Of a stretch of 64,000 nt of DNA, positions 24,373-50,160 are shown piece after piece; the stretch's first letter is position 1, and each line of letters opens with the position of its first letter. Source of the stretch: Eledone cirrhosa (Eukaryota). Both the position numbers and the translations under genes were made by a program. Below the pieces are notes generated by a model. The model did not search any database. It had not been told where the DNA came from and worked only from the letters and a program-made list of their open reading frames with translations. The stretch spans positions 293,694,001 through 293,758,000 of the forward strand of contig OZ024742.1 in NCBI GenBank assembly GCA_964016885.1, given 5' to 3'.

Positions 24373-24435
24373 CTAGGGCAGGTAAAATTCCCGAGATCCA
24401 TGAACGAGTTCTCTCCAGCGTTCTCTGTCCCTCAT
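24373..24435 (-). mobile_element. Very short LINE 3' end (family E) within (TA)n
   Basis: MRDRERWRELVHGSREFYLP* carries the terminal DRxxWR motif of RTE-type ORF2. Confidence 0.55.
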
Positions 24436-24486
24436 TATAATATATATATATATAATATATATATATATAATATATATATATATGTT

Positions 24487-24519
<33 letters not shown>

Positions 24520-24529
24520 TATAATATAT

Positions 24530-25620: not shown

Positions 25621-27338
25621 AATGCAGTTCGGGTTTGTGTAAGGCAAAAGTACCACAGACGCTCTTTTCATTGTACGACAACTACAGGAGAAGTACCTAG
25701 CTAAAAGTAAACCCCTATACTTAGCTTTTGTTGACTTGGAGAAAACCTTTGACAGAGTCCCCTGCTCCATTATGTGGTGGGCGCTTAGAAAACTAGGTGT
25801 TGATGAATGGCTTGTGAGAGCTATACAAGCCATGTATAAAGAAACAGTCAGCAAGGTTAGAATTAACAACGAATATAGTGAAGAGTTTAGCGTAAAAGTT
25901 GGTGTTCATCAGGGCTCCGTTCTTAGCCCCCTACTATTTATTATTGCCCTTCAGGCTATAACAGAGGAGTTCAAGACCGGCTGCCCATGGAAACTCCTAT
26001 ATGCAGATGATCTCATAGCTGAATCAATGTCTGAACTAGAGAAGAAATTCCAAACATGGAAGCATGGCCTAGAATCAAAAGGCCTTAAAGTTAACTTGTC
26101 TAAGACTAAAGTTCTAGTTTGTAGGAAGGAAAATAGGGCACCGGTCCCATCTGGGAAATGGCCATGCTCAGTGTGTAGGAAAGGAGTAGGCAGAAACTCC
26201 ATTTTATGTCCCAAATGTAAAGTATGGGTGCATAAAAGATGTAGTGAGATCACAGGTAAGCTAACTAAGAATATAGATTTTATATGTGGCCAGTGGTCTG
26301 GTACAATAAGTAGCAGCAAGTGCCCACAGAATACTAGCTCATTCCACTGCAGAGATGGTTCTATAGAAATAGTGGACACCTTCCATTACCTGGGTGACAA
26401 AATCAGCAGTGGGGGAGGGTGCTCTGAAAGTACAGTAGCTAGAGTCAGAACGGGATGGAAAAAGTTCAGAGAGCTTATACCACTATTAGCCGCTAAAGGG
26501 TTCTCTCTAAAAATGAAAGGCAGGCTGTATGATGCCTGCATACGAACAGCAATGTTACATGGCAGTGAGACTTGGGCATTGTGTGCAGAGGATATACGCA
26601 GACTGGAGAGAAACGAAGCTTGCATGCTCCGCTGGATGTGTAATAGTAATATACGTGAATGGCAAAGCATAAACGAACTAAGGGAGAAATTAGGAATAAG
26701 AGGGATCAGATGTTGTTTACTCGAGAGAAGACTACGTTGTTATGGTCACGTGATGCGCATGAAAGACGACAGCTGTATAAAAAAGTGCAGGGCGATAAAA
26801 ATAGACGGTAGCCACGGAGTAGGGAGACCCAGAAAAACCTGGGACAACTTGATAAATTCCAACCTCACGCACTTACACCTCTCCAAGACTATGTCACTGG
26901 ACCGAGATCTTTGGCGCTACACAGTCATACAGAAGACCCGCCTTGCCTAAGTACAAAGCGAAACCTACAGTCAGTAGGCACCTCTGACAAAATACATCCC
27001 CGTCCCACTACCCCCACCCCATCCACACCACCACCTTAAATGTGAAGTTATGTTGGTACCACAACATCCAGGCCGAAACAAATGAGGTCGTGTAGGTGTC
27101 ACGACAAAAAAAACACACAGTCCACGCTGTAATGTGGCCGTGTAGGTAACACGGTAAAAACCTCTCAGTCCACACTGTAAACGTGGTTGGTGTTAGGAAG
27201 GGCATCCAGCCGTAGAAAACCCGCCAGACAGTCCTATACGAGCAGGATAACCAATCTTGCCTCAAGTGGGAAAATTTCCGTCCAAACCCATGCAAGCGTG
27301 GAAGATGGACGTTAAACGATGATGATGATGATGATGAT
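25618..27338 (+). mobile_element. 5'-truncated RTE LINE family B with the RT domain open (ORF 25736-26950)
   Basis: DLEKTFDRV, GVHQGSVLSPLLF, LYADDL, YLG, HGSETW and GRPRKTW motifs; ~370-nt 3'UTR; (GAT)n tail. Confidence 0.95.
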
Positions 27339-28808
27339 ATATATATATATATAACAGTTTTATGATTATTTTCCATGCTTACATGGGTTAGATGGGCTGA
27401 CATGTTCTATGACTAAACATATGTTCCCTTCTGATATAGTTTCTATGGCTGGATGCCTTTCCTAATGCCAACCAATTCTCAGTGTGAAGTAGGTACTTTT
27501 TATTGTGGCACTGCCACTGTCACATGACAGGGTGGACAATATACTTTTCTTTGTGGCACCAGCACTACCACTTTACAGAGCGAGTTGGGTGCATTTTACC
27601 TTGGCCTCATTACTACCACTTTACAGTGTGGGCTGAGTGCATTTTATTGTGATACCAGCACTACCACAGTTCGACACTGGGACACTCATTGTATCATCAA
27701 CAAGGCTAAGAAGGTAGTGATAGTTGTGGAGAGATGAGAGTTGGGGAGGAGGTTCCATATTGCTTGCTGAGGGAAAGGTGGCTTCAAAGCGTGAATGATA
27801 TCTGGTGTTATACTGTAGGGTACGCCCATCTTTTCATGCTTAGCATGGTTGGATGAGGAATTGGGAATTAAGGGATATGAGTGGGGAGAGATTAAATGTT
27901 GGGTCATGGGAGTGATCTTGGAGAGAGAGAGAGAGAGAGAGAGAGAGGATAAATGAGCAATGTTTGATCTGATTAAAAGAATTTGTTAAATAAAAGATGA
28001 CTACTTCCTAGAATGATGATCTGTATCACCAGGAATTGAATTGGTAATATTCCTCTTCTGCTTTTATTTCCCAAAAACTGTAAATAGAGACCAGGGTGGG
28101 GGCAGGTTCACATCGTCTTAATGAAGACAGAGGTTGAGATATAGAGATAAGCTCAATATATTTATGGGTTTTACATAGATAGGAATAGTATAGTATAGAA
28201 AATTGGTACCAGCTTGGAGAGGTGTGTGCCTTGCACAGCACAGATAGAGAATGAGAGGTGTGGTAGTAGTGAAAATATGTAATATTCATATAAGTGCATC
28301 AAATTGAAATGTGATGATACAAATCTTTTAATCTATCATAAACATGTCAGTCTCTCCCACACCACCTTTTTCGTTTCAGTAAATGTAAAAAAAGATTTTA
28401 AAAAAAAAAAATAAGAGAAGAGAAAAGACGTGGAAATTTAATAATTCAGTTTGAGATAAATTTCTAAAATTTACATATTTCTGTTTATCTCAAAATAAAT
28501 GTGTTTTAATGTTTATTGACGGTAAGAACTGAGAGAGGGTTTACATTTTTTACAGTTGACTCAGAATATACAGTGTGGCTTATTTTAATGATATTAATTT
28601 TTCATCTTCATATCTGACAAGATTATTGAAATAACTTTGAGTTGAGTCTTAATATGGTTTTCTTCAGGACTAGAATGTTATTAAATTAGTAGTATAAAGA
28701 CATGATGATGTAAGACAATACACCCAGATCACAGTCTTGTTAGTCTTTATAAGTTGGTGTTTGGAACATAACAAACGGTTCTTAAATAAAATTATCATAT
28801 ATGATATC

Positions 28809-29272
28809 TTAACCCTTTAGTTATCAACCCGGCCATAACCGGCTCTAGTTCTAGCAAATAAAACCACCCATTTTAAACATTTCCAATTTAAATTAAAATC
28901 TATATAAGTACCTTATATTAAGTTACTACTTTATTAGTGAAATAATTGATAATTTTAGTAAATCCCTCAAAATTCTTCATTAATTAATTAAAAAAGAGTG
29001 TGTTTCATTAGAAATGTGGTCATGAAAAGGTTAAATATGAACAGCTTAACCCTTTAGCATTTAAACTGGCCATATCTGGCCAGAATTCCCTCACCTCTTT
29101 CTTTTTAAACTGGCAGTAACCAACAGCTGCTAATGTTAAGGTATTGTTCTCAAAATAAATAATATAAAAAATCTTGTAGAATCGATATTATGTGAGATAA
29201 CTATGTGAAGTAAAGCCTTTACCATGAAAATACAATAGTAAACACAGAGTGATTTAAATACTAAAGGGTTAA
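28809..29272. mobile_element. Two adjacent piggyBac-type MITEs: P2 28809-29034 and P1 29046-29272
   Basis: TTAA|CCCTTTAG...AA(A/G)GG|TTAA termini on each; multiple copies in the window. Confidence 0.85.
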
Positions 29273-31405
29273 ATTGAAACATTTTGTATCATGAAATCAG
29301 AGGCATATCTCAAGTGAGTTAGTATCAAAAGGGATGCCTCAGCCTGGCTGAGGATACACAATTATCTTACAATACAGAAAGATAGTGGATCTATTCTAAA
29401 AACTAGAATATATATTGGTACATGTTATTTACATAACAGTAATTTTTAGAGAATTTCATACTTTATTTTCTTCCAATATTAATTAATCATGCCTAATGAA
29501 ACAATTATAATAGATGGATTTACACTAAAACCAAAACTACTTATCTCTAAACACTATACTTCTTTTTGTTAAGTTATTAATCAAAAGTAATTAATAGTGC
29601 TTATAATTAGTTCAATCTGGTCATTGAGTGTCAGGCAAAATGCCTTGCGGTATTTGTTCTGGCTCTAAGTACACTGAGTACATCTTACCAAGGTCAACTT
29701 TGCCTTTTGTCCTTTCAAGGTTGATAGAATAAAGTACATGTTGTCCAGCGTGGTGAATTGACAGAAATGTTAGGGTCAAATGCGATACTTTGAATCTTGC
29801 TGAAATCAACTTTGGCTTTCATCTTTTTATAACTGATAAAGTACCAGCCCAGTACTGAGTTGTGTGTGTGTAGAGAGAGAGAGAGAGAAGTCAGTTGTGG
29901 GGAAAGACTCTGCCAGGTTTAAAATGCACAAGCACCTCTAGAACTCCATCAGGAATTAAGAAGCCATTGATGGATGGGTCAGATAAATAGAGAAACTGAT
30001 TTATTGAAACTGAAAATTCACGAGGATTACAATTCTTTTATTCTTATACTGGACCATATCAACACCAATATTTATTCTACTCTGGTACTTATTTAGAGAG
30101 TTAATTTGAAAGAAAGTTTTGGATATTTCTTCTAACTTTATGTATGAGTTCATGTAGAAATAATGTAAAGTAAATAAAATGTCTGAACTGTTTCATCTCA
30201 AATATCCATCTATTATATGTTGTATTTGCCCAATGTGCCATACAGTTGGAATGAACTTGAAACCACATGGTTGCAAAGCAAACTTCCTAACCACACAGCC
30301 ATACATACAATACTATGATTGAAGAGCCCCAAATCATTATAGCTCATAAATAACCAAAGAAAAAATACAAAAAACAACAAAAACAATATTGAAATACAAG
30401 ACTTATTTGTTATGCAGATATGCTAATGTAACTAATTTACATAGTCATACATATCAACCAGATTTAGATGCATCTGACCTGGTCTCTAAGGTTACACATT
30501 TCTAACTTGGAAATTCAGCTAATAATTAGCATATATAGAGCTGCATGGATAGGTGTGTATTAACATAAATTGTGATTTTTTTTTTTTTGTTACATTCATC
30601 TCTAGACATGACCAGCATTCTCATCATCTTTATCATCATTTAACATCAATTTTCTGTGCTGGAATGGGTTGGATGGGGTATCATAGACCAAATCAACACT
30701 TAATCAAAATTATTATCCTCTCACTGATGATTTGTGGGCCCACATCCCATTTATGTTCAAAGTTTGTCTTAGTTTCTATAGACAGATGTTCTTATCACCA
30801 ACCACTTTACAGAGTGTAAGGGTGCATTTTATTTTGATACTAACATTAAGAGAGGTTATGTCCTTGACACAACTGAAGAGTCCTCTCAATCCTTTGTTTG
30901 GTATGGTTTCTATGACTAGACAGCCTTACTATCACCAACCACTTTACAGAATATATTAGTTACATTATATCATGGTACCAGCCCTAGAGAGGTTGTCTTG
31001 TGTATTGACATAAATTGAGACATCTTTTGTTACAGTAATCTCTATATATAACTAGCAATCTTGTATTATAGAACAAGATATTCACTGTAGTATTGCCAGC
31101 CATGAAAGAGTGAAGAGGATTTCAACAAGATAATTAAATAAGTAAACTTGCATGCACACATATTTAAGTCTGTTAAACATGGTATACAGATGTTTCAACT
31201 CATTAAATATTGTGTTATTTAACATTGTGCAGAGGAAGATTGCAGTTACAATCTAATTATTATGAATGAATACATTGAATAGAAAGAAAAGCAACATAAA
31301 TAATAACATTATAACTATTTCACTGAAATAAATAGTTCCAATATTGATAATGAACAAAAGAATTATTTTAAACATAGGGTTTCTCATTACATTGATGAAA
31401 TCCAG

Positions 31406-31610
31406 TTAACCCTTTAGCATTTACATTAGTCTATATTTACTATTGTATTTTCATGGTAAATACTTTATCTCACATAATTATCTCACAAAATATCGAATCT
31501 ACAAGATTTTGATATTTATTTTGAAAACAATACCAGTCACAGCCGGTTTAAACAGAAAAAGGTGAGAGAATTCTGGCCAGATATGGCCAGTTTAAATACT
31601 AAAGAGTTAA
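31406..31610. mobile_element. piggyBac-type MITE P1 (reverse orientation)
   Basis: TTAACCCTTTAGCATTT...AAATACTAAAGAGTTAA. Confidence 0.82.
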
Positions 31611-31823
31611 GATGTATGTATGGACCTGTAACTCCTGAAGGAGTTGTAGGTGTGCCATATTGACATACAGTACTTCTAGGGCATTTTTAAACCTAGCAGA
31701 GCCCATCTTCTCTCCAGATTTGAATACAGCAGATTTCTTCAGTGAGAAAAAGATATGGAGGAAGAATTGACCCCAGTACTTGATTGATACTTTTTTATCG
31801 ACCTTACTGTATTCACTGTAGAG

Positions 31824-31984
31824 CAGGCATGTCAAACTGAGGGTCCACAAGGGCCACATGGGACACATATGTGTTGTCTGAGGGCTACACACAACTAATT
31901 GTGCACATTACAACTAATTTTTTTAATTTTATATTACAAAGATAAAACATGCTCGCACTGTAAAAACCTTTGTGCGGGCCGCAG
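31824..31984 (+). mobile_element. hAT-like MITE left end abutting the minisatellite
   Basis: CAGGCATGTCAAACT..GGGCCACATG..GCGGGCCGCA resembles hAT/Charlie-type termini; no right end found. Confidence 0.4.
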
Positions 31985-34125
31985 GAGGGTATATAGTGTA
32001 TAGTACTATAGATGAGAGGGTATATAGTGTATAGTACTATAGATGAGAGGGTATATAGTGTATAGTACTATAGGTGAGAGGGTATATAGTGTATAGTACT
32101 ATAGGTGAGAGGGTATATAGTGTATAGTACTATAGGTGAGAGGGTATATAGTGTATAGTACTATAGATGAGAGGGTATATAGTGTATAGTACTATAGATG
32201 AGAGGGTATATAGAAACAGTACTATAGGTAAGAGGGTATATAGTGTATAGTACTATAGGTGAGAGGGTATATAGTGTATAATACTATAGATGAGAGGGTA
32301 TATAGTGTATAGTACTATAGGTGAGAGGGTATATAGTGTATAGTACTATAGGTGAGAGGGTATATAGTGTATAGTACTATAGGTGAGAGGGTATATAGTG
32401 TATAGTACTATAGGTGAGAGGGTATATAGTGTATAGTACTATAGGTGAGAGGGTATATAGTGTATAGTACTATAGGTGAGAGGGTATATAGTGTATAGTA
32501 CTATATATGAGAGGGTATATAGTATATAGTACCTGCTTCTTAAACGTGGTGGGTACTTCCTTCTGCACCAATTATCACACTTCTTCCAATTCTGTCTGAA
32601 CAATGGTGCTACTCCAGAACAATGGTGCTACTCCAGAACAGTGGAAAACTGCCAGTGTCATTCCTCTATTCAAAAAGGGTGACCGCACATCACCTGTGAA
32701 CTATCGTCCAGTCAGTCTTACTAGTTGCATTGCCAAACTGATGGAATCCTGTGTCAGAGAAACACTTTGGAACTTCTGGAACTCTCAGTCTTATCCGGCC
32801 CTCGCAATTTGGATTTATCACTAACTCCAGCTGCTGTGATCAACTTATCGAGTTTCTTGAAGACATCACCCGGATCACTGATGGTGGCTCATGGGTGGAT
32901 GTTGTTTACCTTGACTTTGCGAAAGCTTTCAATTCTGTGCCACACAAAAGGCTTATGGCAAAACTCTCTGCAATGGGTGTGAAGGATGATCTTTTTAACT
33001 GGTTGAAGTCCTTCATTCTCAGTCGAAGAGAGGTAGTCACGGTTCTGGGACAGCATTCCTCACCATATAAGATGTCATCTGGTGTACCACAGGGATCTGT
33101 TCTTGGGCCCCTTTTGTTTGTGGCATATATTAATGACATAGATGCCAACTTAAAGAATGCCACAGTACTAAAGTACGCAGACGACATCAAGCTGTACCTT
33201 GAGATAAAAAGGACAGATCCTGAACACTATAGATCTTGCTTGCAGTCTGACCTGGACACAATGCAACAATGGATCTCAGACTGGCAACTCAAGCTAACTG
33301 TGAACAAGTGCACCACCATGCATTTTGGGAGTAAAAACCTAGTGTCCACATACTCCCTCCACAGCACTAATATAAAGAAGTATTCTTGTGAACGTGACCT
33401 GGGCATTACGGTCAGCAGCGATTTGCATTGGATGAAGCACGTCTCTAAAATTGTCAAGAGGGCCGAGGGTGTCTTAGCATCACTCAGCAAGACCTTTGTC
33501 AGCTGCTCTCCAGCTATCTATTTAAGGCTGTACATGGCTATGGTGTGGCCACACTTAGAATTTGCATCACCAGTCTGGAACCCCTATCTTGCTCAGAACA
33601 TTGACCGCCTGGAAACTGTTCAGAGACGTGCAACCAAGCGAATACCCTCCAACAGGCATCTACCATACTCTGAGTGCCTTGCTTCCCTGGGCATGGATAC
33701 ATTGCAGCTCCGACGCCTGGCAACTGACTTGGTAAACACCCACAAAATTGTTAACCATCTTGCCAACAACAACCCTGAGTACCTTTTTGATTTCCATGTG
33801 TCTAACACACGTGGGCATGCCCACAAAGTCAGAAAACAGTACAGTTCCCATGACTTTCGGAAACATTTTTTCACGCTCAGAGTTGCTGAAGCATGGAACA
33901 AACTACCTGCATCGGTTGTTAGCTGTCGAGACACTGCATCCTTTAAGGCCTCCATGCTTCCCGAGATTCGCCAACACTACACCTAATGTTCCCCCTCCAT
34001 ACACATACACGCATGTATATCATGACTCATACACTATTCACTTCCCTGACATTTGTGTATTATGCTATGTACTATACATACACCTTTGACGAGTTGTGTA
34101 CCTGAGCACTTCATACAATAATTTC

Positions 34126-34156
<31 letters not shown>

Positions 34157-36231
34157 GTACTATATGTGAGAGGGTATATAGTGTACAGTACTATATGTGA
34201 GAGAGTATATAGTGTATAGTACTATATGTAAGAGGGTATATAGTGTATAGTACTATATGTGAGAGGGTATATAGTGTACAGTACTATATGTGAGAGAGTA
34301 TATAGTGTATAGTACTATATGTAAGAGGGTATATAGTGTATAGTACTATATGTGAGAGGGTATATAGTGTACAGTACTATATGTGAGAGAGTATATAGTG
34401 TATAGTACTATATGTAAGAGGGTATATAGTGTACAGTACTATATGTAAGAGGGTATATAGTGTACAGTACTATATGTGAGAGGGTATATAGTGTATCGTA
34501 CTATATGTAAGAGGGTATATAGTGTATAGTACTATATGTGAGAGGGTATATAGTGTACAGTACTATATGTGAGAGGGTATATAGTGTACAGTACTATATG
34601 TGAGAGTATATAGTGTATAGTACTATATGTAAGAGGGTATATAGTGTATAGTACTATATGTAAGAGGGTATATAGTGTATAGTACTATATGTAAGAGGGT
34701 ATATAGTGTATAGTACTATATGTGAGAGGGTGTATAGTGTACAGTACTATATGTAAGAGGGTATATAGTGTACAGTACTATATGTGAGAGGGTATATAGT
34801 GTACAGTACTATATGTAAGAGGGTATATAGTGTACAGTACTATATGTGAGAGGGTATATAGTGTATCGTACTACAGGTGAGAGGGTATATAGTGTATAGT
34901 ACTATATGTGAGAGGGTATATAGTGTATAGTACTATATGTAAGAGGGTATATAGTGTACAGTACTATATGTGAGAGAGTATATAGTGTATAGTACTATAT
35001 GTAAGAGGGTATATAGTGTATAGTACTATATGTAAGAGGGTATATAGTGTATAGTACTATATGTAAGAGGGTATATAGTGTACAGTACTATATGTGAGAG
35101 GGTATATAGTGTATAGTACTATATGTGAGAGGGTATATAGTGTATAGTACTATATGTGAGAGGGTATATAGTGTATCGTACTATAGGTGAGAGGGTATAT
35201 AGTGTATAGTACTATATGTGAGAGGGTATATAGTGTACAGTACTATATGTGAGAGAGTATATAGTGTATAGTACTATATGTAAGAGGGTATATAGTGTAC
35301 AGTACTATATGTGAGAGGGTATATAGTGTACAGTACTATATGTGAGAGAGTATATAGTGTATAGTACTATATGTAAGAGGGTATATAGTGTACAGTACTA
35401 TATGTGAGAGGGTATATAGTGTACAGTACTATATGTGAGAGAGTATATAGTGTATAGTACTATATGTAAGAGCGTATATAGTGTACAGTACTATATGTGA
35501 GAGAGTATATAGTGTATAGTACTATATGTAAGAGGGTATATAGTGTATAGTACTATATGTAAGAGGGTATATAGTGTACAGTACTATATGTAAGAGGGTA
35601 TATAGTGTACAGTACTATATGTAAGAGGGTATATAGTGTACAGTACTATATGTGAGAGGGTATATAGTGTACAGTACTATATGTGAGAGGGTATATAGTG
35701 TATAGTACTATAGGTGAGAGGGTATATAGTGTATAGTACTATATGTGAGAGGGTATATAGTGTATAGTACTATATGTGAGAGGGTATATAGTGTATAGTA
35801 CTATATGTAAGAGGGTATATAGTGTATAGTACTATATGTAAGAGGGTATATAGTGTACAGTACTATATGTGAGAGGGTATATAGTGTATCGTACTATAGG
35901 TGAGAGGGTATATAGTGTATAGTACTATAGGTGAGAGGGTATATAGTGTATAGTACTATAGGTGAGAGGGTATATAGTGTATAGTACTATAGGTGAGAGG
36001 GTATATAGTGTATAGTACTATAGGTGAGAGGGTATATAGTGTATAGTACTATAGGTGAGAGGGTATATAGTGTATAGTACTATAGGTGAGAGGGTATATA
36101 GTGTATAGTACTATAGGTGAGAGGGTATATAGTGTATAGTACTATAGGTGAGAGGGTATATAGTGTATAGTACTATATATGAGAGGGTATATAGTGTACA
36201 GTACTATAGGTGAGAGGGTATATAGTGTATA
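31985..36231. repeat. 31-bp minisatellite GAGAGGGTATATAGTGTATAGTACTATAGGT (~17 + ~67 units), split by a LINE
   Basis: 31-bp periodicity visible. The consensus unit contains the palindrome TATAGTACTATA. Confidence 0.97.
32533..34150 (+). mobile_element. 5'-truncated CR1/L2-group LINE, RT domain with a frameshift and a 19-bp internal duplication
   Basis: WKTASVIPLFKKG..NYRPVSLTS, QFGF, YLDFAKAF, SGVPQGSVLGPLLF, YADDIK, ERDLG, WNPY and AWNKLP motifs. (TTA)n tail and 10-bp TSD TATATAGTAC. Confidence 0.95.
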
Positions 36232-36430
36232 ATGATTTCTAGTATAGGTACAAGGCCAATAATTTGGGGTGAGGGGAAGTCAATTAAATCGACCTCAGTA
36301 CGTTACTGGTGCTTTATTTTATCGACCCCGTAAGTATGAAAGGCAAAGTTAACCTCAGAATGTAAAGGACCATAACTCTATGCTGCAAAGCAGGGTGTCC
36401 AACTTTACTGATACTGCCAATCCACCACCC
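36231..36430 (-). mobile_element. Meta-like SINE
   Basis: Family core and head in reverse complement. Confidence 0.8.
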
Positions 36431-36484
36431 TTAATAAACATCAATAGTCACATAGAATATTTTGTTTAAATTACAAACTTCACT

Positions 36485-36905
36485 GAAAAGGTGGGAGGAG
36501 GGAATAAAATGAAGGTGAGAAGTGGGGAGAGAAAAGGTGGAGTGTGGAGGAGGAAAGTGAATAGAATAATGATGAGATGTGGTGGGGAGGAGGAGGAGAA
36601 AGTAAAGGTATAGTGGGGGAGTAGAATGAAGATAAGAAAAAGGGAGAGAAAAGGTGAGAGCTTGGAAGGAGAGAGAAATAGAGTCATAATGAGGTGAGAT
36701 AGAGAAAGAATAAATGTGAGAAGTGGGGAAGGGGAGAGAGAAAAAGTGAGAAGTGGAGAGGGGCAGAGAGTAAATGTGAGAAGTAGAGAAGGGGAGAAAT
36801 GAAGGAGGAAATGGAGAGGGGAAAAAGAGAAACCGTGAGGAGTGGACGAGGAAGGAGAAAGAAGTAATAAAGGTGTGAGGTGGAGATAGAGAAAAGGTGA
36901 CAATA
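36485..36905. repeat. Purine-rich low-complexity tract
   Basis: GA-rich degenerate repeats. Confidence 0.85.
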
Positions 36906-37109
36906 GCAAGAGAATATATTTCTAATGAAGCAATTACCACAGTAAATTGCCAAAAAATGTTTGATTAGAAATGAATTAAATTATAAATTTTATACCAAAC
37001 ATCAACATTATCCCTGTTTTAACGTTCATTTTCCATGCTTGCGTGGCTACAGTAAACATTCTTTGATGTTCATGTAATTGTTGAAACGTTTGTTCCATAA
37101 AGGTTTCAG

Positions 37110-37150
37110 ACTTACCTACAAAAAGAAACAGAAAAAGAAGAAAAATTAAT
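37110..37150 (-). promoter_or_regulatory. Candidate recursive splice site (3' splice site directly abutting a 5' splice site)
   Basis: Minus strand reads ATTAATTTTTCTTCTTTTTCTGTTTCTTTTTGTAG|GTAAGT, with the junction between 37116 and 37115. Confidence 0.6.
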
Positions 37151-37641
37151 ATATTTTAAATACCAAATTTTAACAAATTACAATCTATAAATATCTATAA
37201 AATAATAGCAGAAAAGATCTCGCATAGCTAAGCCATACTGGGCTTAATACTTTTATGACTGCACTTCTAATGAAATACATTATTTTAATTAATTAATGAA
37301 GAATTGAGGGATTTACTAAAATTATTGATTAAAATTATTGAAGAGAGTAACTTAATGTAAGGTTCTTATCTAAAATTATGTTGGAAGATTTATAAATTAA
37401 ATTGGAAACCTTTAAAATGGGTGGTTTTATTTCATAGAACCAGGGCTGGTTTTGGCCGGGTTAGTAACTAAATGTTAACCAAGCTGAGTTGGTTGAAAAT
37501 ACATTTCCATATATGAAGTTTTATTGTTACACCTAGAGAAAAAGTAATCATTGGGAATCAGTGTGGCTGAAAGGCATAGCAACCTGCTAAGTACTGGTAC
37601 CACAGTAAATGTACCTGCTGCACCCTGTAAAGTGCAGGAAT

Positions 37642-37995
37642 GTACTCTCAGGTATCAAATAATCAACTCCCTTCCCCACCCCACTTATTAATTTTTCAGA
37701 TTTCTTCCAACTCTCCACTGCTCTTATTCCACCCATACTGCTGCTTATTAAATTTTGCTAATCTATCTCCAGCAAAATTATATTTTAAGAGGTGACAATT
37801 TTCTTTATACATTAAAAAACATTATACATGACAAAAAAAGTACATTACTAGAACTCTCAAACGTTATAAAATAAATAGCGTGGGTTGGGGTCTCGGTATG
37901 TAAACTAAACGACTAATTCTGTTTTTTTTTTTTAATCAACAGAGACAACCTAGAAAAATTACCTATTTTCCATTTTCCAACCATCCTGCTTATTC

Positions 37996-38029
<34 letters not shown>

Positions 38030-38073
38030 CCTCTGTTTATTCCAACACCCCCTATTATTTGGGACCCGAAAAT
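37642..38073. mobile_element. Degenerate TA-flanked (Tc1/mariner-type) MITE
   Basis: Imperfect TIRs TACTCTCAGGTATCAAATAA and TTATTTGGGACCCGAAAATA; a related end lies at ~7055-7110. Confidence 0.4.
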
Positions 38074-40268
38074 ATGTAAGTGAGATGAGTCCCCATCCTG
38101 TCTGAGAGATCAGTAGTTCTGATTAAGTACTGACTTGGTCTGTGATGACCCATCCAACAGTTGCTACCAAGAAAACAAGACTAATGATGATAATGATTTT
38201 ACTATTTGAGATATTGTCACAGCATCTTGACAGACATAGTTGGCATCTGTAAAATAGTACCACAGGCAGGTAGACAGTAGGAAACCTATCAAATTGAAGA
38301 CTGAGTGGCCATTTTGTAATCTGGTTACAATAGCTTGAAGTGGTTGTTACAGCAAGAAGACGAAGCAAGAAGAGATCCTCTATGAGGTTGCTTAACTTGC
38401 TAGAAATAACATCATTTCCACACAGCATGAAGACATTGGATGGTCATGGCTGGAATGCTTTTAATTAAAAGTTCAAAAGTGCTAAAACAGCAGTGGCAGC
38501 AACATCATGATCACATCACCATCAGAGTATTTTAACTAATTACAAAGTTAAATCAGACAGACTGGGAGAGAGTAAAGTAAAATTACCCAAATTATCAAAC
38601 ATTCATTAGTCTCTTTTTTTTTAATTACATCTGTCATCTACTGACTGATACTTAGAATCAATAATTAGAAACCATTATTGAAAACAGTAACTCCAAAATA
38701 CATTGATTATTGCCTGTAATCAATCCATATAAAATATTTTTGTTTCAACACACATTATATAATTTGTAATGCATGGCCAGCCAAGACAACTGTTACACCT
38801 TTGGGGGTTTAAAATACAATAAATGGATTATCATAGCCCATTAGAAGGTGAGAGAGTAATAATGGTGTCAAAAAATACACTATTGTGATTTTTTTGTTCT
38901 TTATTTTCTATAAAATCTATTTCCATATAAATGTATTGAAACTATACATGACCTTGACAATTATAAAACAATCTCTAAATCTAAAAAAAAAAAAGCTATT
39001 TCCCTGGCATTTCTCACAATTTACATTCTAAAATTACAGACTTGCTACACTTTCTCTTGCCGTATGTAGTAGAGAGAGGTGGCAAATTAGCAGAGTCATT
39101 AGAACATCAGATAGAATACTGTATGGTATTCATTCCAGCTCTCTGAGTTCAAATCCTGCCAAGGTCAACTTTCCCTTTCATCCTTTCGAGATCGATAAAA
39201 AAAAAAGTACCAGTCAAGTACTGGGGTTGATTCTTCTCTCTCTGGATGGGCTCTGACAGGCTTAAAATGCCCAAGAAATGCTGTATGTCAATACGGCACT
39301 CCTACAACACTATCAGAAGTTACAGGATCATACATACATACATGTATGTTCACACTGATACCACTCAAACAGCAAGTATTGTTTGCTCATGATAAAATAC
39401 ACCCAGTATACACTGTAAAGTGGTAGTACTGGTGCCATGATAAAATACAACCAGTATACACTGTGAAGTGGTAGTACTGGTGCCATGATAAAATACACTC
39501 AGTAGACTCTGTAAAGTGACAGCACTGCTACCACAAGAAAATACACCTAGTACATTGTATGAAGTAGTGGGCATTCAGAAATAGAAACCAAACCATTATT
39601 ACAGAACAAATAAAAGTAAACTTGTGTTATACAAAAAATCAAAGGTTCATCGTATTTTAATCTCATTATGGTAAAGTAATAATATAAAATAATAATAATA
39701 ACATAATAATATGATATATTCCACATTTGGTACAGTATTAACTCATTAACAAATCTAATTGGATTTTATGAGGAAGAGGAGTAGTAGAAAGAGGAGGAAG
39801 AAGACATAATTAGTTTGTTGTTGATAATAATCCCCAAAGTACCAGTGACAGTCAACTTAATTAGTTCACTCTACTCTAACTTCCAAATTGTTTCTTAGTA
39901 CTACCCCTAACTACACAGCTGTATACACACGCACACACACACACATATATATATATGCACACACACGCACACATACATATATATATATACATACCTACAC
40001 ATATATTAAGCTAGTTGCTGTCAATATCCACAGAGTACAAACCAATGTACAAATGACACTACACATAATATCGTCACCACTGTTTTTAGATCAACTTTTA
40101 CATGATGACAAGGGTTAAACAAGATATCTTTTAGGTAGTACTGCATAGTCAAACACCCTTCCAGATATCAAGCCATACTGTATTATTAAGTATGGCACTC
40201 CATTTATCTTTGTTGAACTACAAAGCTATCAGATATTGTATATGTGGAACATGATGTTACCCCTTGCT

Positions 40269-41049
40269 TTAACCCTTTAGTTACCAATCTGACCAAAACC
40301 GGTTCTGGTTCTATGAAATAAAACCACCCATTTTAAAGGTTTCCAATTTAAATTAAAATCTTCCAACATAATTTTATATAAGAACATTACATTAAGTTAA
40401 TATCTTAGAAATGAAATAATTAATAACTTTAGTAATTCCCTCGAAATTCTTCATTAATTAATTAAAATAGAGTGTATTTCATTAGAAAAATCGTCATGAA
40501 AGGGTTAACCATTTAACATTTAAACTGGTTGTATCCGGCCAGAATTCTCTCATCTCTTCCTGTTCAAACCAGCCATAAATAGCTGCTCATACTTATGTTA
40601 AGATATTGTTCTCGAAATAAATAATGTCAAAATCTCCTAAATTCAATATTATGAGAGAATAATTTACAATAGTAAATATATAGAGAATGGAGGCACATGG
40701 CTTATTGGTTAGAGCAGTGGCCTTGCAATCGAAAGGTTGTGAGTTCAATTCTCAGACCGGGTGATGTGTTGTTTCCTTGAGCAAGGCGCTTTATTTCACA
40801 TTGCTCCAGTTTACTCAGCTGTAGAAATGAGATGATAGGGACCGGGGTCCCTATCATTCCACTGCAAAGTGGTCGTGGAGGTGCCACGGCAAAAAAGCAC
40901 CCAGCACTCACTGTAAATGAGGTTGGTGTTAGGAAGGGCATCCAGCTGTAGAAAGCAAGCCAGAATCAGTTCCCGCCCCACCCTTGCAAGCAGGGAAAAG
41001 TGGACGTAAAATGAAATGATGATGATAATGATGAATGCTAAAGGGTTAA
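40269..41049. mobile_element. MITE P2 (40269-40508) and MITE P1 (40505-41049) sharing one TTAA; P1 is interrupted by a SINE
   Basis: Junction AAAGGG-TTAA-CCATTTAAC; P1 resumes after the SINE with AATGCTAAAGGGTTAA. Confidence 0.85.
40688..41033 (+). mobile_element. Full-length tRNA/CORE-like SINE with an RTE-related body and the family C tail
   Basis: A and B boxes, CORE-like TCCTTGAGCAAGGCGCTTTA, hairpin ATGATAGGGACC/GGTCCCTATCAT, and tail CCCACCCTTGCAAGCAGGGAAAAGTGGACGTAAAATG(ATG)n. Confidence 0.92.
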
Positions 41050-41433
41050 GCAATGTCAGTATGAAGATGCATAGAGACATAGTATCCAAAAAAAATATAT
41101 ACACACTTTGATTACCTGTACAGGCAATATTTATTAGAATGCTGTTGAAGTGTGTATACATTTTTTGGAGGACACCTTGTATATGACAGACTTCCATACG
41201 TTTTCCATATATCAAATTCCACTCATAAGACATTGGTCATCCTAAGGATTTAGAAGACACTTGCACAAGGTGTCATGCAGTAGAATCAAACTGAAACCCA
41301 AACCAACATTGTGATGCTAACTTCTTAACCACATTAGTCATGCCTGCGCCTACATGTTTACATGTTGATATAGAAAACTGAATGCAAATGTCTGACAATA
41401 TAAAACTAGAATTAAACTCCACACATATGTAGA

Positions 41434-41995
41434 CCACCAGTCAGCAAAATAATTGTTTCTACTTTTGGCACAAGGCCATCAATTACCCAGTGCATTACTG
41501 GTACTTTATTTTATCGACCCCGTAAGGATGAAAGGCAAAGTTAACCTTGGCGGGATTTGAACTCAGAATGGCAAGGGTCGTAACTCTATGCTGCAAAGCA
41601 TGGCGTCAGACCCTCTAACGATTCTGCCAAGTCACTGCCCTCCACCAGTCAACAAAATAATTGTTTCTACTTTAGGCACAAGGCCAGCAATTATCGCAGT
41701 GCATTACTGGTACTTTATTTTATCGACCCCGTAAGGATGAAAGGCAAAGTCAACCTCGGCGGGATTTGAACTCAGAATGGCAAGGGTCGTAACTCTATGC
41801 TGCAAAGCATGGCGTCAGACCCTCTAACGATTCTGCCAAGTCACTGCCCTCCACCAGTCAACAAAATAATTGTTTCTACTTTAGGCACAAGGCCAGCAAT
41901 TATCGCAGTGCATTACTGGTACTTTATTTTATCGACCCCGTAAGGATGAAAGGCAAAGTCAACCTCGGCGGGATTTGAACAGTCAACAAAATAAT
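41434..41995 (-). mobile_element. Tandem trimer of Meta-like SINE separated by a repeated target sequence
   Basis: (CCAC)CAGTCA(A/G)CAAAATAAT at 41434, 41642, 41851 and 41980. Confidence 0.93.
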
Positions 41996-42411
41996 GCCAG
42001 GTAGGAAATAACAGTAAAAGTGTCATTTAAATAAAAGTCAGGAAGTAGAGAAAAATATTTTTATTACATAGTGAAGGAGGTGGTATAAGAGGGGGAAGGG
42101 GAGGAGGTGATAAAGGAAGGGGAAGGAGAGGAAGTGACAGATGAGGTGGGAGAGGGTAGATGGAGGAGGTGGTAAAGGAAGTAGAAGGAGGGTAGGTGGA
42201 GGAGGAAGAAGGAGGAGATTACGAGAGGGAAGAGAAGAAAAGGTAAATAATGAAGAATTCAAATCAATAACTCTTCTTAAAGAGAAAGAAAGAACAAAGA
42301 AATATTCTTTTGTTCATTATTGAGAAATATTTTTTTTTCTATGGATTAAAAGTGAAAAACGTGGGACTGTTTAGTTATAGAGGTAGAGTAAACAATCCCC
42401 AGGATGTCAGG

Positions 42412-43155
42412 AATATATAAAGAAGAGAGAGAGAGATAGTAGAAGTTTGAGAGGATAGTGTGAGAGGTATATATAAAGAAGAGAGAGAGAGATAGTAGAA
42501 GTTTGAGAGGATAGTGTGAGAAGTATATATAAGGAAGAGAGAGAGAGAGAGAGATAGAAGTTTGAGAGGATAGTGTGAGAAGTATATATAAGGAAGAGAG
42601 AGAGAGAGATAGTAGAAGTTTGAGAGGATAGTGTGAGAGGTATATATAAAGAAGAGAGAGAGAGATAGTAGAAGTTTGAGAGGATAGTGTGAGAAGTATA
42701 TATAAGGAAGAGAGAGAGAGAGAGATAGTAGAAGTTTGAGAGGATAGTATGAGAGGTATATATATAAAGAAGAGAGAGAGAGATAGTAGAAGTTTGAGAG
42801 GATAGTGTGAGAAGTATATATAAGGAAGAGAGAGAGAGAGAGATAGTAGAAGTTTGAGAGGATAGTATGAGAGGTATATATAAAGAAGAGAGAGAGAGAT
42901 AGTAGAAGTTTGAGAGGATAGTGTGAGAGGTATATATAAGGAAGAGAGAGAGAGATAGATGTTTGAGAGGATAGTGTGAGAGGTATATATAAGGAAGAGA
43001 GAGAGAGATAGTAGATGTTTGAGAGGATAGTGTGAGAGGTATATATAAGGAAGAGAGAGAGAGAGAGAGAGATGTTTGAGAGGATAGTGTGAGAGGTATA
43101 TATAAGGAAGAGAGAGAGAGAGATAGTAGGTGTTTGAGAGGATAGTGTAAGAGGC
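42412..43155. repeat. ~57-60-bp minisatellite with an internal variable (GA)n
   Basis: About 13 units of GTTTGAGAGGATAGTGTGAGAGGTATATATAAGGAA(GA)nTAGTAGAA. Confidence 0.95.
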
Positions 43156-43961
43156 AAATAGTTGAAAGACCTGTAGTTGACATTGTCATTGGCACTGTCA
43201 AGGATATGGTAACCTCTCTAGTGGTGGTGCCACAATAAAATACACCCAGTACATTCTGAAAAGTGGTTGGAGATTGAATAGAGACAATGTAGGATGAAGA
43301 AAACTAAACCATCCCAAGACTACACCAACTTCTTTAGTCTTTGTCTTCTTGCACTTACTCAATGAGGCTGGAGTTATCCTAGGTCAGTGATCTCAGAGGT
43401 ATAATCATGCGAAGAGCTGAACTCTTTATACTGGTGCCATAATAAAATATTCCTAGTATTCTCTGCAATGTGGTTGGAATTAGCAAAGGCATCCAGCCAT
43501 AGAAAGCATGCCAAAATTAGAATATATGAGTGAGAAGTGGTTCTCTGACCTTGTCTAGGAGAATAATAACTCCAGATTAGAACTGACTAGAAATATAACC
43601 ACCTATCTAACTCATGCCAATAGAAAGTAGATGTAAAATGGTGGTGGTGGTAATGATGATGATGGTGGTGATGATAAGGTGAAAAGTTGAGTAAAATCTA
43701 TATACCATGTATCCTCATGTATAGGTCTTACCTTTTCCCCCAACAAATATATGAAAAACCAGCATAGCTCTTATCTACTGTGCTTTGAAAAGCTCAATTC
43801 AAAATCTATGGTAAGTACATAACAAATGCTGTATGTAAAATGGAGGTGTGACTTATCTATCAATGCAACATATGCACAAGCATATATAGCATTTGAAATA
43901 AAATTCACTCTGAGAGTACATATTAGGTGTCTTTAGCAATAATTTAATGTTAATGCCACAT

Positions 43962-44175
43962 ATCATCATCATCATCCGGCAGCCTCAGCCAAATCTCTGG
44001 AGATGACATCAGGGCAAAAGAGCTTGCGCCCCTTGTTATTAGTGACTGTTTGTGGTTTCCAAAGCACTAATGGGGACACATCCTCATAGGTGGCACGGTG
44101 GAAGTGGCCAGCAAATCTTACTCCACTCTTACGTACAACAGATATGTGTGGGAGGCTGGCATATATCCCTTTCAA
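43962..44175 (-). mobile_element. Older RTE/RTEX-like LINE 3' fragment (family F)
   Basis: IYASLPHISVVRKSGVRFAGHFHR..LVLWKP..GRK..DVISRD followed by (GAT)n. Confidence 0.65.
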
Positions 44176-44713
44176 AGGCAGATGTCACCAGCTTATGTTC
44201 TGAATGCACTGAAGCAGGCGAGTGTATGTGCCATTAAGGTGCTTTTGTTATTTGGATGAAAGCGTCCATGTTTCACTTCCATATAGCAAGTAATATGTTT
44301 CCTGCCGCTTACTCTCTCATCTCACTCCATCATTTCCACACCAGATGCCACAATAAGCATCCAAATGTAATGAGGTATGCCATTTTCTGCACTAGCATGG
44401 GTTAAACAAGTTATCCCATTGTGGGACAAGTCAGAGCAGGTGACCATATCTTAACCATACAGAACTGTTTCTGGTTTAGTTTCTACAATGGATGTCCTTC
44501 CTAGTGCCAACCACATTTCCAGTGTGGACTGGGTGCTTTATTGTGGGACTAAAGTGACCAATTGGACTGGGTACTTTTTCATCGTGTCACCAGCACGACC
44601 ACCTTAGAGTGTGGGCTGGACGCTTTTTTGTTGTGTCACCAACAAGACCACCTTATATGGTGGGCTGGGTGCTTTTTGTGTTACCAACATGACCACTTTA
44701 TTTATATATATAT

Positions 44714-44905
44714 AGGGCGGTGGATTGGCAGTATCAGTAGAGGGTCAGACGCTATACTTTGCAGCAAAGAGTTACAGCCCTTTATGATCTGAGGTCAAAT
44801 CCCGCCGAGGTTAACTTTGCCTTTCATCCTTACAGAGTCAATAAAATAAAGTACCAGTAATACACTGGGGTAATTGCTGGCTTTGTGCTAAAAGTAGAAA
44901 CATTT
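44714..44905 (+). mobile_element. Full-length Meta-like SINE
   Basis: Runs from GGGCGGTGGATTGGCAG to AGTAGAAACATTTATT. Confidence 0.88.
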
Positions 44906-44927
44906 ATTTATATATATATATATATAT

Positions 44928-47880
44928 ATCATCATCATCACCGTTTTACGTCCGTTCTTCCACGCTAGCATGGGTTAGACGGGTTGTCCTGTTGTGGGCA
45001 GTGTCTGGTCGGCTGACCATGCCTTGCTCATACAGGAACTGATTTGGCTTGATTTCTACAGCTGGATGCCCTTCCTAACACCAACTTCATTTACAGTGAG
45101 TGCTGGGTGCTTTTTCGTGACGCCTACACGTCCACTTTACAGTGTGGGCTGGGTGCTTTTTTGCCGTGGCACCTCCACGACCACCTTGCGGTGGGGGGTG
45201 TGGGGGCATATTGTCTATATGCTTCAGTTTGTACCCATGGGAGGTCGGGTACTCTGTATTACTGCGTGACGCCAGAGGTCACGGTCGTGTGTCATCACCT
45301 TTGAGAGGTGTAATTGGGTAAGGTCGGCTTTTATCACCTCATCCCAAGTCATCTTGGGTCTCCCCACTCCGCGGTTTCCATCGATTTCTAGTGCTCTGCA
45401 CCTTTTATGCAGCTGTCATCCTTCATACGCATCACATGTCCATACCAGCGCAACCGCCTCTCCTGCACACAGCATTTGATTCCTCTTATGCTCAGTCTCT
45501 CTCTCAATTCATTTATGCTTTGTCGTTCGCGTATATTACTGTTACACATCCATCGGAGTATGTAGGCTTCGTTTCTCTCTAATCTACGTAAGTTTGCATT
45601 TGGAGCAGAGAATGGAGTTCCTACCTACACCTTTCCTACATACTGAGCAAGGCCATTTCCCTGAGGGGATTTGGGTTCTGTTTTCTCGTCTACTTACAAG
45701 GACCTTAGTCTTTGTCATGTTGACTTTGAGACCCTTTCTTTCTAGTCCCTGCTTCCAAGTTTGGAATTCCTTCTCTAGTTCTACCATAGATTCAGCTATA
45801 AGTGCGAGGTCATCAGCATACAGGAGTTCCCATGGGCATCCGGTCTTAAACTCCTCCGTTATTGCCTGCAGGACTATGATGAACAGGAGGGGGCTAAGAA
45901 CAGAGCCCTGGTGGACCCCAACCTGTACGCTAAATTCCTCGCGATACTCATTGCTAATCCTAACTTTGCTGACTGCTCCCCTATACATGGCTTGTACCGC
46001 TTTCACAAGCCATTCATCTACTCCTAGTTTTCTAAGAGCCCACCAGATTACAGCACGTGGAACTCTGTCAAAGGCTTTCTCAAGGTCGACAAATGCCAGG
46101 TGAGAGTGGCTTACTTTTAGCTAGGTACTTTTCCTGTAACTGCCTCACAAGGAAGAGGGCATCAGTGGTGCCTCTTCCTGGTACAAACCCAAATTGCATC
46201 TCGTCTAGTTTCACCCGGTCCCTAATCAACTGTGTAATAACTCTTACTGTTATTTTCATGACCTGGTCCATCAGCTTTATACCTCTATAGTTTCCTCTAT
46301 CTAGTGCATCACCTTTACCTTTGTAGCAGTTGACAATGATGCTACTGCACCAATCTTTTGGTATGACACCTAGTATTAACTGGTTAACAATACGTGTGGT
46401 TATAGTGTGACCTACAGACCCAGATGCCTTCAGCATCTCGGCAGCTATACCGGATGGACCGGTTGCCTTCCCCATCGTCATATCTTTGATTGCCTTACTA
46501 CGTTGCTGCTGACTTGTACTGCTGGCCCCTCTATAGGGTCTACTTGGGGTATGGTCTCTTCTTCCCATGCATTCTCCTCATTTAGTAATCTATCATAATA
46601 ACTCTTCCATGCATCTTTCTTCTCAGCACTTGTGAGGGCAAGCTCACCTTTATCATTCCGGATACACTTCTCTCCAATGACATCACAACTTTCTCTGACA
46701 CACTGCCTCGCAATCTTGAACACCTGTTTCTGGTCCTCACATTGCAAAACATGCTTGAATTTTCTATCCTCTGCTTCCCTCCTAGCTAAGTATACTTGTT
46801 GCCTAGCTTCCCTCTTGGTCTCTATGTAATGTACCCTCCTCCCCCCGTTCTTCCATGCCTGTCTCTTGGCCTTAACTGCCTCATTTACCTTATTGTTCCA
46901 CCACCAAGTCACTCTCCTCCTGCTTGAGGTCTTACTCCAGCCACAGACCTCATCCGTCGCCTCTAGTAAGTTAATTTTTAGGAACTCCCAGTTCTCTTCT
47001 ACATTGAATGTCTCTATCTGTTCTTTACTGTCGTAGGCGTTGAGTAAAATATCTTTAAATCTGTTACTGGTTTAGGGGTCTTTCAGCTTCCAGATCTTTC
47101 TTCTCCAGGTTGGCCTCTGTTTCCAGGTTCGTCTAGTTCTGACTGTGAGGTCGCTGACAACTAGGCTATGTTGGGTTGTACATTCCTCACTAGGGAAGGC
47201 TTTTGTGTTTACGACCGTCCATCTGTCACGTCCTCTGATGAGGATAAAATCTATCTGACTAGAGTGCTCCCCTGATCTATAGGTGATCAGGTGGTTGTCA
47301 GGATTTTTAAAGTTTGTGTTACATATCGACATGTCATTGGCGTCGCAGAATTCTAGAAGTCTGAATCCTTCTTCATTTCTTGTGCCAACCCCATGGCTTC
47401 CATGGACTCTATTGAAGCCGTCGCAGTGTTTACCTACGTGTCCGTTAAAATCTCCTGCGATGATTAGGAAGTCATTGTCGTCTGATAGAGCAGTAGTGTG
47501 TATTAGGGACTATCCTTAAGTTCGTCTGGCAGCCCCGATTGGGGTACGTAAGCTGATATTATTGTGGTAATTGTTATATTCAGGACTAGTCTGAGTTTAA
47601 TGATTCTTGCATTTACCCTGTACACTGAGATTACTTTATCTACCCACTTGTCAGCTAGTAGTATACCTACACCACCCATCCCATCGTCATTTCCCACCCA
47701 GAAAAATTTGTAGCACCGACTTTTTCCTACAAAGACTCTAGCAGACTCTCCTCTCCATCTAGTCTCTTGCACACAGCATACATCAACTTCCTTTCGCTCT
47801 AGCATTTCTACGATTTCTCCTGCTCTTCCTGTCATTGAGCCTACATTGATGGTACCAACTCGGAGTTTTGGGCATTTGTT
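44928..47880 (-). mobile_element. Near full-length RTE LINE family A (APE endonuclease + RT), inactivated by frameshifts, stops and an ~0.36-kb deletion at ~45593
   Basis: APE motifs GTINVGS, VQETRW, SAYVPQ, GDFNGHVG and QIDFIL; RT motifs YKGKGD..NYRGIKL, QGSVLSPLLF and YADDL. (TA)n on both flanks. Confidence 0.96.
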
Positions 47881-47928
47881 ATATATATATATATATACAC
47901 ACATACATATAAATTAATTTTCCTATTT

Positions 47929-47959
<31 letters not shown>

Positions 47960-49622: not shown

Positions 49623-50160
49623 TTAACCCTTTTGATACCAAACCATTTGAAACTGCTCCTGATTTTATAATACAAAACTGTTTTAAAGTGTTTATATTTA
49701 TCTTAAGACCTATCATAATTTTATGTAAGAACCTTTCTTAAACACCAGCTTAATAATAAAGTTATATTACTAAATACTTCCAAATTCATGATTATTTTTA
49801 AATTATTTTAAAATCTAAAAACCTTTCATAATTTTATGTAAGACCCTTTTTAAAGTTATATTCCAAACTTCAGCTTAATAATGAGAAAGCTAATTATATT
49901 ACAAAAACCTTCCAAATTCTTCATTATTTCAAAATGTTTTTAAACATATAGGCAATGTCTTTCATTAAAAACATGGTAATGCCAGTGCTTATATTTATCT
50001 TAAAACTTTTTGTCATAATTTTATGTAAAAACCTGTTAAATAATGTTCCAAACACCAGCTTAATAAGAAGAAAGTCATATTACTAAACCCCTCCAAATTG
50101 ATTATTTCAAAATCATATGTAGTGTCTTTTATTAGAAATATGGTAACGAAGGGGGTTAAA
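49623..50160. mobile_element. P2-related TTAA MITE with internal tandem duplications
   Basis: TTAACCCTTTTGATACC...GGTAACGAAGGGGGTTAA; three internal repeats of CATAATTTTATGTAA...CAGCTTAATAA. Confidence 0.65.

What the first reader, a model, noticed from the sequence alone, without database searches (positions are those of the whole stretch)
37110..37150. Canonical recursive-splicing (ratchet point) motif on the minus strand
Seen: in non-repetitive sequence the minus strand has a branch-like TTAAT, an ~26-nt almost pure pyrimidine tract, then TAG immediately followed by the perfect donor GTAAGT. Established: the juxtaposition YnNYAG|GTAAGT defines zero-length recursive splice sites in very long Drosophila and vertebrate introns. 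Inference: this window is part of a giant minus-strand intron removed stepwise. I am not aware of this being characterised in cephalopods, but I cannot check that here.
Basis: partly seen in the sequence, partly recalled or inferred. Interest (0 to 1): 0.75.

Follow-up and report, generated by a model that had tools for sequence, protein, structure and literature searches.

The report
Ratchet point in octopus alpha-catulin intron
A back-to-back "intron end / intron start" signal sits on the coding strand inside the 171,000-base first intron of an octopus-like animal's alpha-catulin gene and likely lets the cell cut that intron out in pieces, as flies do, but no RNA data were available to show that it is used.

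Summary
Motif confirmed: minus strand, TTAAT, 25 of 26 pyrimidines, GTAG|GTAAGT at 37115, single copy. Host found: it lies on the sense strand of the 170.9-kb, phase-0 first intron of alpha-catulin, 105 kb from exon 1 and 66 kb from exon 2. It is the best AG|GT of 1,408 sense and 1,377 antisense positions in the 407-kb gene. It is not a coding exon: 12 of 12 homologues that span the junction join exon 1 directly to exon 2, and the in-phase frame stops after 22 codons. Genome-wide, Y16-NYAG|GTAAGT occurs 65 times versus 28, 27 and 43 for the three variants together at +5, +2 and -2. The class carries fly-type marks: TT at -5/-6, branch-like motifs, a cryptic donor 25-90 nt downstream. Against: no RNA, no conservation test, no cryptic donor near this site (best at +178), and 1 of 40 simulated introns scored as high. 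Verdict: likely recursive splice site (0.72), new member of a known kind. This scan reported the same class at several other genes of this genome; three paper searches found no mollusc study.

The parts
37145..37149 (-). Branch-point-like TTAAT; putative branch A at 37146 (-31 from the AG)
   Evidence: Sequence. Fly ratchet branch points lie at -36 to -21, peak -30 (10.1101/006163). Use not shown.
37120..37145 (-). Polypyrimidine tract, 25 of 26 C/T, TT at -5/-6
37116..37119 (-). 3' splice site GTAG (acceptor half of the ratchet point)
   Evidence: Acceptor score 8.3; the gene's 15 real acceptors score 2.0-14.5
37110..37115 (-). Donor hexamer GTAAGT; joined to exon 1 it would rebuild CAG|GTAAGT, the same 9 letters as exon 1's own donor
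   Evidence: score 8.6, top of the range 2.8-8.6 of 14 real donors; GTAAGT is used by 8 of 14 donors of this gene
36938..37115 (-). Possible cryptic RS-exon, 178 nt to GTG|GTAATT at 36937 (weaker alternative: 120 nt to TTG|GTATAA at 36995); stop codon after 22 codons in the host's phase
   Evidence: Donor scores 3.4 and -2.0; a donor of 3.4 or more occurs in 15% of random 175-nt intron windows: inconclusive
37016..37046 (.). Short remnant of a high-copy repeat inside the possible cryptic exon
   Evidence: Summed contig depth about 1,700-1,800 against 5-10 beside it, from 31-mers 90-95% alike
1..64000 (-). The whole window is part of intron 1 of alpha-catulin (donor at window-equivalent 142241 = G000:C3:293836241; exon 2 starts at -28677 = G000:C3:293665323; 170,918 nt; phase 0)

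Best explanation
The motif lies on the sense strand of the 170.9-kb first intron of an octopod alpha-catulin gene and is likely a recursive splice site (ratchet point) at which that intron is cut out in steps. Mechanism, inferred from flies: as transcription passes 37115, exon 1 (ending CAG) is spliced to the AG, removing the first 105 kb; the joint reads CAG|GTAAGT, a top-strength donor identical to exon 1's own; it outcompetes the weak donor of the cryptic exon downstream and is spliced to exon 2, removing the last 66 kb and leaving no trace in the mRNA. A weaker candidate 19.5 kb into the intron (window-equivalent 122704, TAG|GTAATT) may add a third step. Shown: motif, host gene, strand, intron size and phase, absence from homologous proteins, enrichment and anatomy of the class. 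Inferred: use of this site in splicing.
For: (1) Host and strand: exon 1 and exon 2 of alpha-catulin flank the window on the minus strand; 16 coding exons over 407 kb; intron 1 is the longest, next 61 kb. (2) The site is the best-scoring AG|GT of 1,408 sense and 1,377 antisense positions in the gene (14.2; best antisense 6.0; best in any other intron 6.9). (3) 12 of 12 homologues that span the junction join exon 1 directly to exon 2 (19 printed; 7 start further down); no 6-residue word of the three frames after the AG occurs in any other stored protein. (4) Class enrichment: 65 genome-wide matches to Y16NYAG|GTAAGT against 28 for A/C/T at +5 together, 27 for A/C/G at +2, 43 for C/G/T at -2 (many of these share one repeated sequence); local base shares predict about 4, 7 and 25. 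(5) Class anatomy after dropping one of each similar pair, 59 perfect sites against 34 near-miss controls: TT at -5/-6 52 vs 15; branch-like motif 36 vs 8; donor 25-90 nt downstream 29 vs 3 (Fisher p 8e-5; background 7.5%); median first-donor distance 62 nt; lengths not biased to multiples of 3 (11/12/14) and frames open no more often than chance (20 of 37, 18.8 expected). (6) All 7 pairs of class members within 1 Mb of each other share a strand; 1.4 pairs expected if spread evenly (one pair is a duplication). (7) This site has TT at -5/-6 and a branch-like motif at the fly distance.
Against: No junction, lariat or saw-tooth data and no cross-species conservation could be examined. This site lacks the near cryptic donor typical of the class: nothing at or above the weakest real donor's score before +178. 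Its acceptor is not the strongest in the intron: at least 15 of 9,406 AGs score higher. 1 of 40 simulated introns reached its score, and the site was picked after the fact from a scan of many windows. It does not match the strict Y16 pattern used for the enrichment; the exact sub-pattern that holds it gave only 6 hits, 3 with G at +5 including this one, too few to test. The two segments (105 and 66 kb) exceed the longest fly segment reported, 63.6 kb. Score matrices came from only 15 acceptors and 14 donors of this gene. Host strand and intron position were not determined for the other 65 sites.
Confidence: 0.72

Rival explanations
1. Chance look-alike: a T-rich run that happens to end in GTAG|GTAAGT inside a long intron and is skipped; the intron is removed in one step or at other sites.
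For: 1 of 40 simulations reached the score; no close cryptic donor; near-miss patterns occur by the dozen; stronger unused-looking acceptors exist in the same intron.
Against: Perfect sites far outnumber each single-base variant (65 vs 5-14 per base at +5), so most perfect sites are not chance; this one is on the sense strand of the gene's longest intron with TT and a branch-like motif.
Confidence: 0.14
2. Regulated poison or RS-exon: the acceptor is real, but a 120- or 178-nt exon is sometimes kept in the mRNA, bringing a stop codon after 22 codons and decay or a shortened protein.
For: Phase-0 frame closes after 22 codons. Annotated isoform X3 of two Octopus species starts at the first Met inside exon 2, which fits an extra stop-bearing or non-coding 5' exon (its exon was not visible to me). 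Kept RS-exons exist in flies (PMC8605326, passages).
Against: The rebuilt donor (8.6) is much stronger than the downstream donors (3.4, -2.0), which predicts skipping. The stretch holds a repeat remnant.
Confidence: 0.07
3. Ordinary 5' splice site of an alternative non-coding first exon that ends in TAG at 37116 and joins exon 2.
For: AG|GTAAGT is the ordinary donor consensus (8 of 14 donors here use GTAAGT); isoform X3 implies some other 5' exon.
Against: The upstream sequence has acceptor anatomy (branch-like motif, tract, 67 nt without AG). In the class, A at -2 is favoured over the other three bases together, and donors are enriched downstream, not explained by a plain donor.
Confidence: 0.05
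4. Ordinary coding exon that happens to begin GTAAGT (the 41-codon open frame KSETF... after the AG), of alpha-catulin or of a nested gene.
For: A 120-nt frame is open to a GT.
Against: The frame is phase 1, the intron phase 0. No homologue in two protein searches, PDB or elsewhere in the genome; one sub-threshold Pfam hit. An open 120-nt frame arises in 24% of random segments. 140 of 141 long frames of the intron were scanned: 8 hit Pfam, 7 retroelement-type and 1 zinc-finger-like on the plus strand.
Confidence: 0.02

Closest known systems
Drosophila intronic ratchet points with cryptic RS-exons (Ubx, kuz, Bx, luna; 10.1101/006163 whole text read; PMC8605326 part 1 of 6 and passages read)
   Same: Juxtaposed YnNYAG|GTAAGT on the sense strand of a very long intron; TT at -5/-6; branch-like motif near -30; absent from protein; rebuilt donor stronger than the downstream one; for the class, a cryptic donor about 60 nt downstream (fly: about 50 nt) with no coding signal.
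   Different: Mollusc host; intron (171 kb) and segments (105, 66 kb) longer than the fly maxima reported (132.7 and 63.6 kb); no near cryptic donor at this site; no RNA or conservation evidence.
Sequence-level RP-site enrichment in large introns of fly, mosquito, bee, beetle and sea urchin (PMC2773006; part 1 of 5, section 6 and passages read)
   Same: Same kind of evidence: excess of the motif over controls in an invertebrate genome.
   Different: That study held no mollusc ('mollus' occurs 0 times in its main text) and used sense versus antisense intron strands; here the control is single-base variants, plus strand within one gene.
Mammalian RS sites and expressed RS-exons (as summarised in PMC8605326, part 1)
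   Same: Acceptor followed at once by a donor; competition with the RS-exon's own donor.
   Different: In mammals most RS-exons are kept and few are fully skipped; here homologous proteins show no trace of the exon and the class looks non-coding, as in flies.

Membership tests
Intronic ratchet point (recursive splice site) | Juxtaposed strong 3' splice site and 5' splice site (YnNYAG|GTRAGT) | tested here: met
Intronic ratchet point (recursive splice site) | On the sense strand of a very long intron | tested here: met
   170.9-kb intron 1 of alpha-catulin, minus strand
Intronic ratchet point (recursive splice site) | TT at -5/-6 and branch point near -30 | tested here: met
   Sequence against fly values; branch use not shown
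Intronic ratchet point (recursive splice site) | No sequence left in the main mRNA | tested here: met
   12 of 12 homologues spanning the junction join exon 1 to exon 2 directly; these are other species' proteins, most from annotation
Intronic ratchet point (recursive splice site) | Rebuilt donor stronger than the cryptic exon's donor | tested here: met
   8.6 against 3.4 at best within 320 nt
Intronic ratchet point (recursive splice site) | Short cryptic RS-exon closed by a downstream donor | tested here: inconclusive
   Met for the class (29 of 59 within 25-90 nt vs 3 of 34 controls); at this site the best donor is at +178, a level that 15% of random windows reach
Intronic ratchet point (recursive splice site) | Junction reads from the upstream exon to the site, saw-tooth coverage, segment lariats | not testable with these tools
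   No RNA holder listed; the three runs laid are contigs that cover the intron evenly
Intronic ratchet point (recursive splice site) | Motif conserved in related species | not testable with these tools
   The genome has no relatives in the search tool
Ordinary coding exon | Open frame in the phase of the flanking introns, with homologues | tested here: not met
   Phase-0 frame stops after 22 codons; no homologues of the phase-1 frame
Alpha-catulin (vinculin family), host gene | Colinear exons matching named alpha-catulin over its length | tested here: met
   Exon 2 is 97% identical to Octopus bimaculoides alpha-catulin X1; residues 1-785 map in order on the minus strand

The most novel reading that the evidence does not exclude
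Octopods remove their giant introns by fly-type recursive splicing through a genome-wide class of ratchet points with short cryptic exons, tolerating segments of 60-100 kb; this site is the main ratchet of the alpha-catulin first intron. That would place the mechanism in the third great branch of bilaterians (lophotrochozoans).
Probability: 0.7. Interest if true: 0.62.

Novelty: new member of a known kind. Interest (0 to 1): 0.47.

Why it matters
Recursive splicing has RNA proof in flies and, for few sites, in mammals; sequence enrichment was reported for four insects and a sea urchin (PMC2773006). Searches for 'recursive splicing'+'octopus' (0 papers), 'recursive splic'+'cephalopod' (1 listing) and 'recursive splic'+'mollus' (2 listings) gave no study on the subject by title or abstract start; those 3 papers were not opened, and most subscription journals are not in the library. 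A large, repeat-rich invertebrate genome that uses fly-type ratchets would show how cephalopods cope with introns over 100 kb and gives a short list of exact junctions to test in one total-RNA experiment. The single site adds one more case to a class that this scan has already noted in this genome.

Tried and rejected
Coding-exon reading (my first guess, 55%): rejected on phase, lack of homologues and a repeat remnant. RNA evidence: no RNA holder listed; the 3 runs are one sample and gave no splice-like joint at the site; no evidence either way. Dispersed-repeat origin of the motif: rejected. Exact sub-pattern with a purine at -14: 6 hits, uninformative. Reversed-pattern controls (12 for, 79 for, 50 for) were not used as the main control. 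Nested gene in the intron: none evident among 140 of 141 long frames; short exons would be missed. A simple exon finder gave no host exon inside the window. One search was aimed at the wrong stretch by my slip and is not used; one search repeats it correctly. One search (any 2 of 5 terms) listed 25 papers, none holding 'recursive splicing'; one search gave 0 papers; PMC6110457 passages added nothing on cryptic exons. Rows dropped before class counts: 6 of 65 perfect sites and 1 of 35 controls, one of each similar pair. Controls were all 28 of the +5 variants and 7 of the 27 +2 variants, the 7 chosen by eye; none of the 43 -2 variants was fetched. Donor 14 of the gene was not located and is left out of the matrix. 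No paper supplements were opened; those of PMC2773006 and 10.1101/006163 may bear on species coverage and site lists.

Full report
Observation. The motif is as described: on the minus strand TTAAT (37149-37145), 25 pyrimidines in 26 bases (37145-37120), GTAG (37119-37116) and GTAAGT (37115-37110). The window is G000:C3:293694001-293758000; the motif and its flanks from 36950 to 37243 matched only themselves in the genome search, which gives lower bounds. Within the window alone the motif is only moderately unlikely.

First reading, rejected. After the AG a 120-nt frame is open in phase 1, so I first suspected a coding exon. It has no homologue among longer proteins, 1.84 billion representatives, PDB chains or elsewhere in the genome. 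Such an open frame arises in 24% of random segments, and 37016-37046 matches high-depth repeat words.

Host gene. In 100 kb fetched on each side, an exon finder gave a 190-nt minus-strand exon at window-equivalent -28677, of the vinculin family and 97% identical to Octopus bimaculoides alpha-catulin. Exon 1 ends CAG|GTAAGT at 142241. The whole protein maps in order over 407 kb in 16 coding exons. Intron 1 is 170,918 nt and phase 0; the next longest is 61 kb. The site lies 105.1 kb from the donor and 65.8 kb from the acceptor, on the sense strand. In the host's phase the frame after the AG stops after 22 codons. Of 19 homologues printed, the 12 that span the junction join exon 1 directly to exon 2; 7 start further down, among them isoform X3 of two Octopus species, which starts inside exon 2.

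The site within its gene. With matrices from the gene's own 15 acceptors and 14 donors, the site is the best AG|GT of 1,408 sense and 1,377 antisense positions (14.2; best antisense 6.0); no other intron exceeds 6.9. Splicing exon 1 to it would rebuild CAG|GTAAGT (8.6, top of the real donors). The second best (11.2) is also in intron 1, sense, at 122704 with GTAATT, but the 85 nt before it belong to a dispersed repeat, so it is a weaker candidate. Limits: at least 15 of 9,406 AGs in the intron are stronger acceptors; the best downstream donor is GTG|GTAATT at +178 (3.4), a level that 15% of random windows reach; 1 of 40 simulated introns reached 14.2.

The class. Y16NYAG|GTAAGT occurs 65 times. 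The three other bases at +5 give 28 together (14 A, 9 T, 5 C), at +2 27, at -2 43, many sharing one repeated sequence. Local base shares predict about 4, 7 and 25 perfect sites from these; binomial p is below 1e-6 in each case. So both the acceptor AG and the donor are favoured together. I fetched all 65 sites, all 28 +5 variants and 7 of the 27 +2 variants. After dropping one of each similar pair (59 vs 34): TT at -5/-6 52 vs 15; branch-like motif 36 vs 8; a donor 25-90 nt downstream 29 vs 3, falling to 3-8 of 59 in later bins; median distance 62 nt; no bias to multiples of three or to open frames. All 7 pairs within 1 Mb share a strand (1.4 pairs expected if even; one pair is a duplication). 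This matches fly ratchet points: TT at -5/-6 in 196 of 197, branch points near -30 (10.1101/006163, whole text) and a cryptic, usually out-of-frame exon of about 50 nt whose donor loses to the rebuilt one (PMC8605326, part 1 and passages). Our site misses the strict pattern by one G in the tract; the sub-pattern that holds it has 6 hits, 3 perfect, too few to test. Host strand was not determined for the 65 sites.

Mechanism. Most likely (0.72) the intron is removed co-transcriptionally in at least two steps: exon 1 to 37115, then the rebuilt donor to exon 2. Motif, context and class statistics are shown; use in splicing is inferred. Rivals: chance look-alike (0.14), kept poison exon (0.07), donor of an alternative first exon (0.05), coding exon (0.02). 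RNA and cross-species tests could not be run.

Novelty. It works like, and on sequence criteria belongs to, the known class of intronic ratchet points; the two RNA-level and conservation criteria are untested and one is inconclusive. Sequence enrichment was already reported for four insects and a sea urchin but no mollusc (PMC2773006, part 1, section 6, passages). Paper searches found no cephalopod or mollusc study (listings only). Earlier notes of this scan report the same class at other genes of this genome; they are unchecked and not independent support; none names alpha-catulin. Verdict: new member of a known kind, interest 0.47.

Noticed in passing
L007:8704 (window-equivalent 122704), minus strand: Second, weaker acceptor-plus-donor site in the same intron (TAG|GTAATT, branch-like CTAAC, score 11.2), 19.5 kb after exon 1; its upstream 85 nt belong to a dispersed repeat.
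   Followed up: partly
Proteins P0047, P0049 (isoform X3 of two Octopus species): Annotated alpha-catulin isoform that starts at the first Met inside exon 2, implying an unknown non-coding or stop-bearing 5' exon, possibly within intron 1.
   Followed up: no
window 31985-36231: A 31-bp satellite (17.7 and 67.1 copies) interrupted by a reverse-transcriptase-bearing insert (frame 32742-33983, Pfam RVT_1) that ends in an ATT run.
   Followed up: partly
window 14278-14832, plus strand: 185-codon frame with three C2H2-like zinc-finger motifs after an ATGT microsatellite (Pfam zf-C2H2, E 1e-8); may be a retroelement piece or an antisense nested gene fragment.
   Followed up: no
L009, window-equivalent 135546-135903: Perfect 358-bp palindrome in intron 1.
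   Followed up: no
window-equivalent -140969 to -138754 (intron 6): 412-bp inverted repeat, 95% alike, arms about 1.3 kb apart, next to a 94-bp palindrome.
   Followed up: no
L002, window-equivalent 66988, minus strand: Strongest acceptor-like site of intron 1 (score 13.6), followed by ACATGT, not by a donor; no exon evident.
   Followed up: partly
G000:C22:24614055-24873761: Eight same-strand near-copies of a pyrimidine-rich motif ending GGTAAGT spaced 14-107 kb apart: likely a tandem gene or repeat family.
   Followed up: no
L048/L061, L054/L055, L060/L063, L084/L101: Pairs of class members with similar flanks (70-96% alike over 200-330 nt): ratchet-like motifs kept in duplicated or paralogous sequence, a possible within-genome conservation test.
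   Followed up: no
window 41434-41980: 209-bp unit in 2.6 tandem copies, 97% alike.
   Followed up: no
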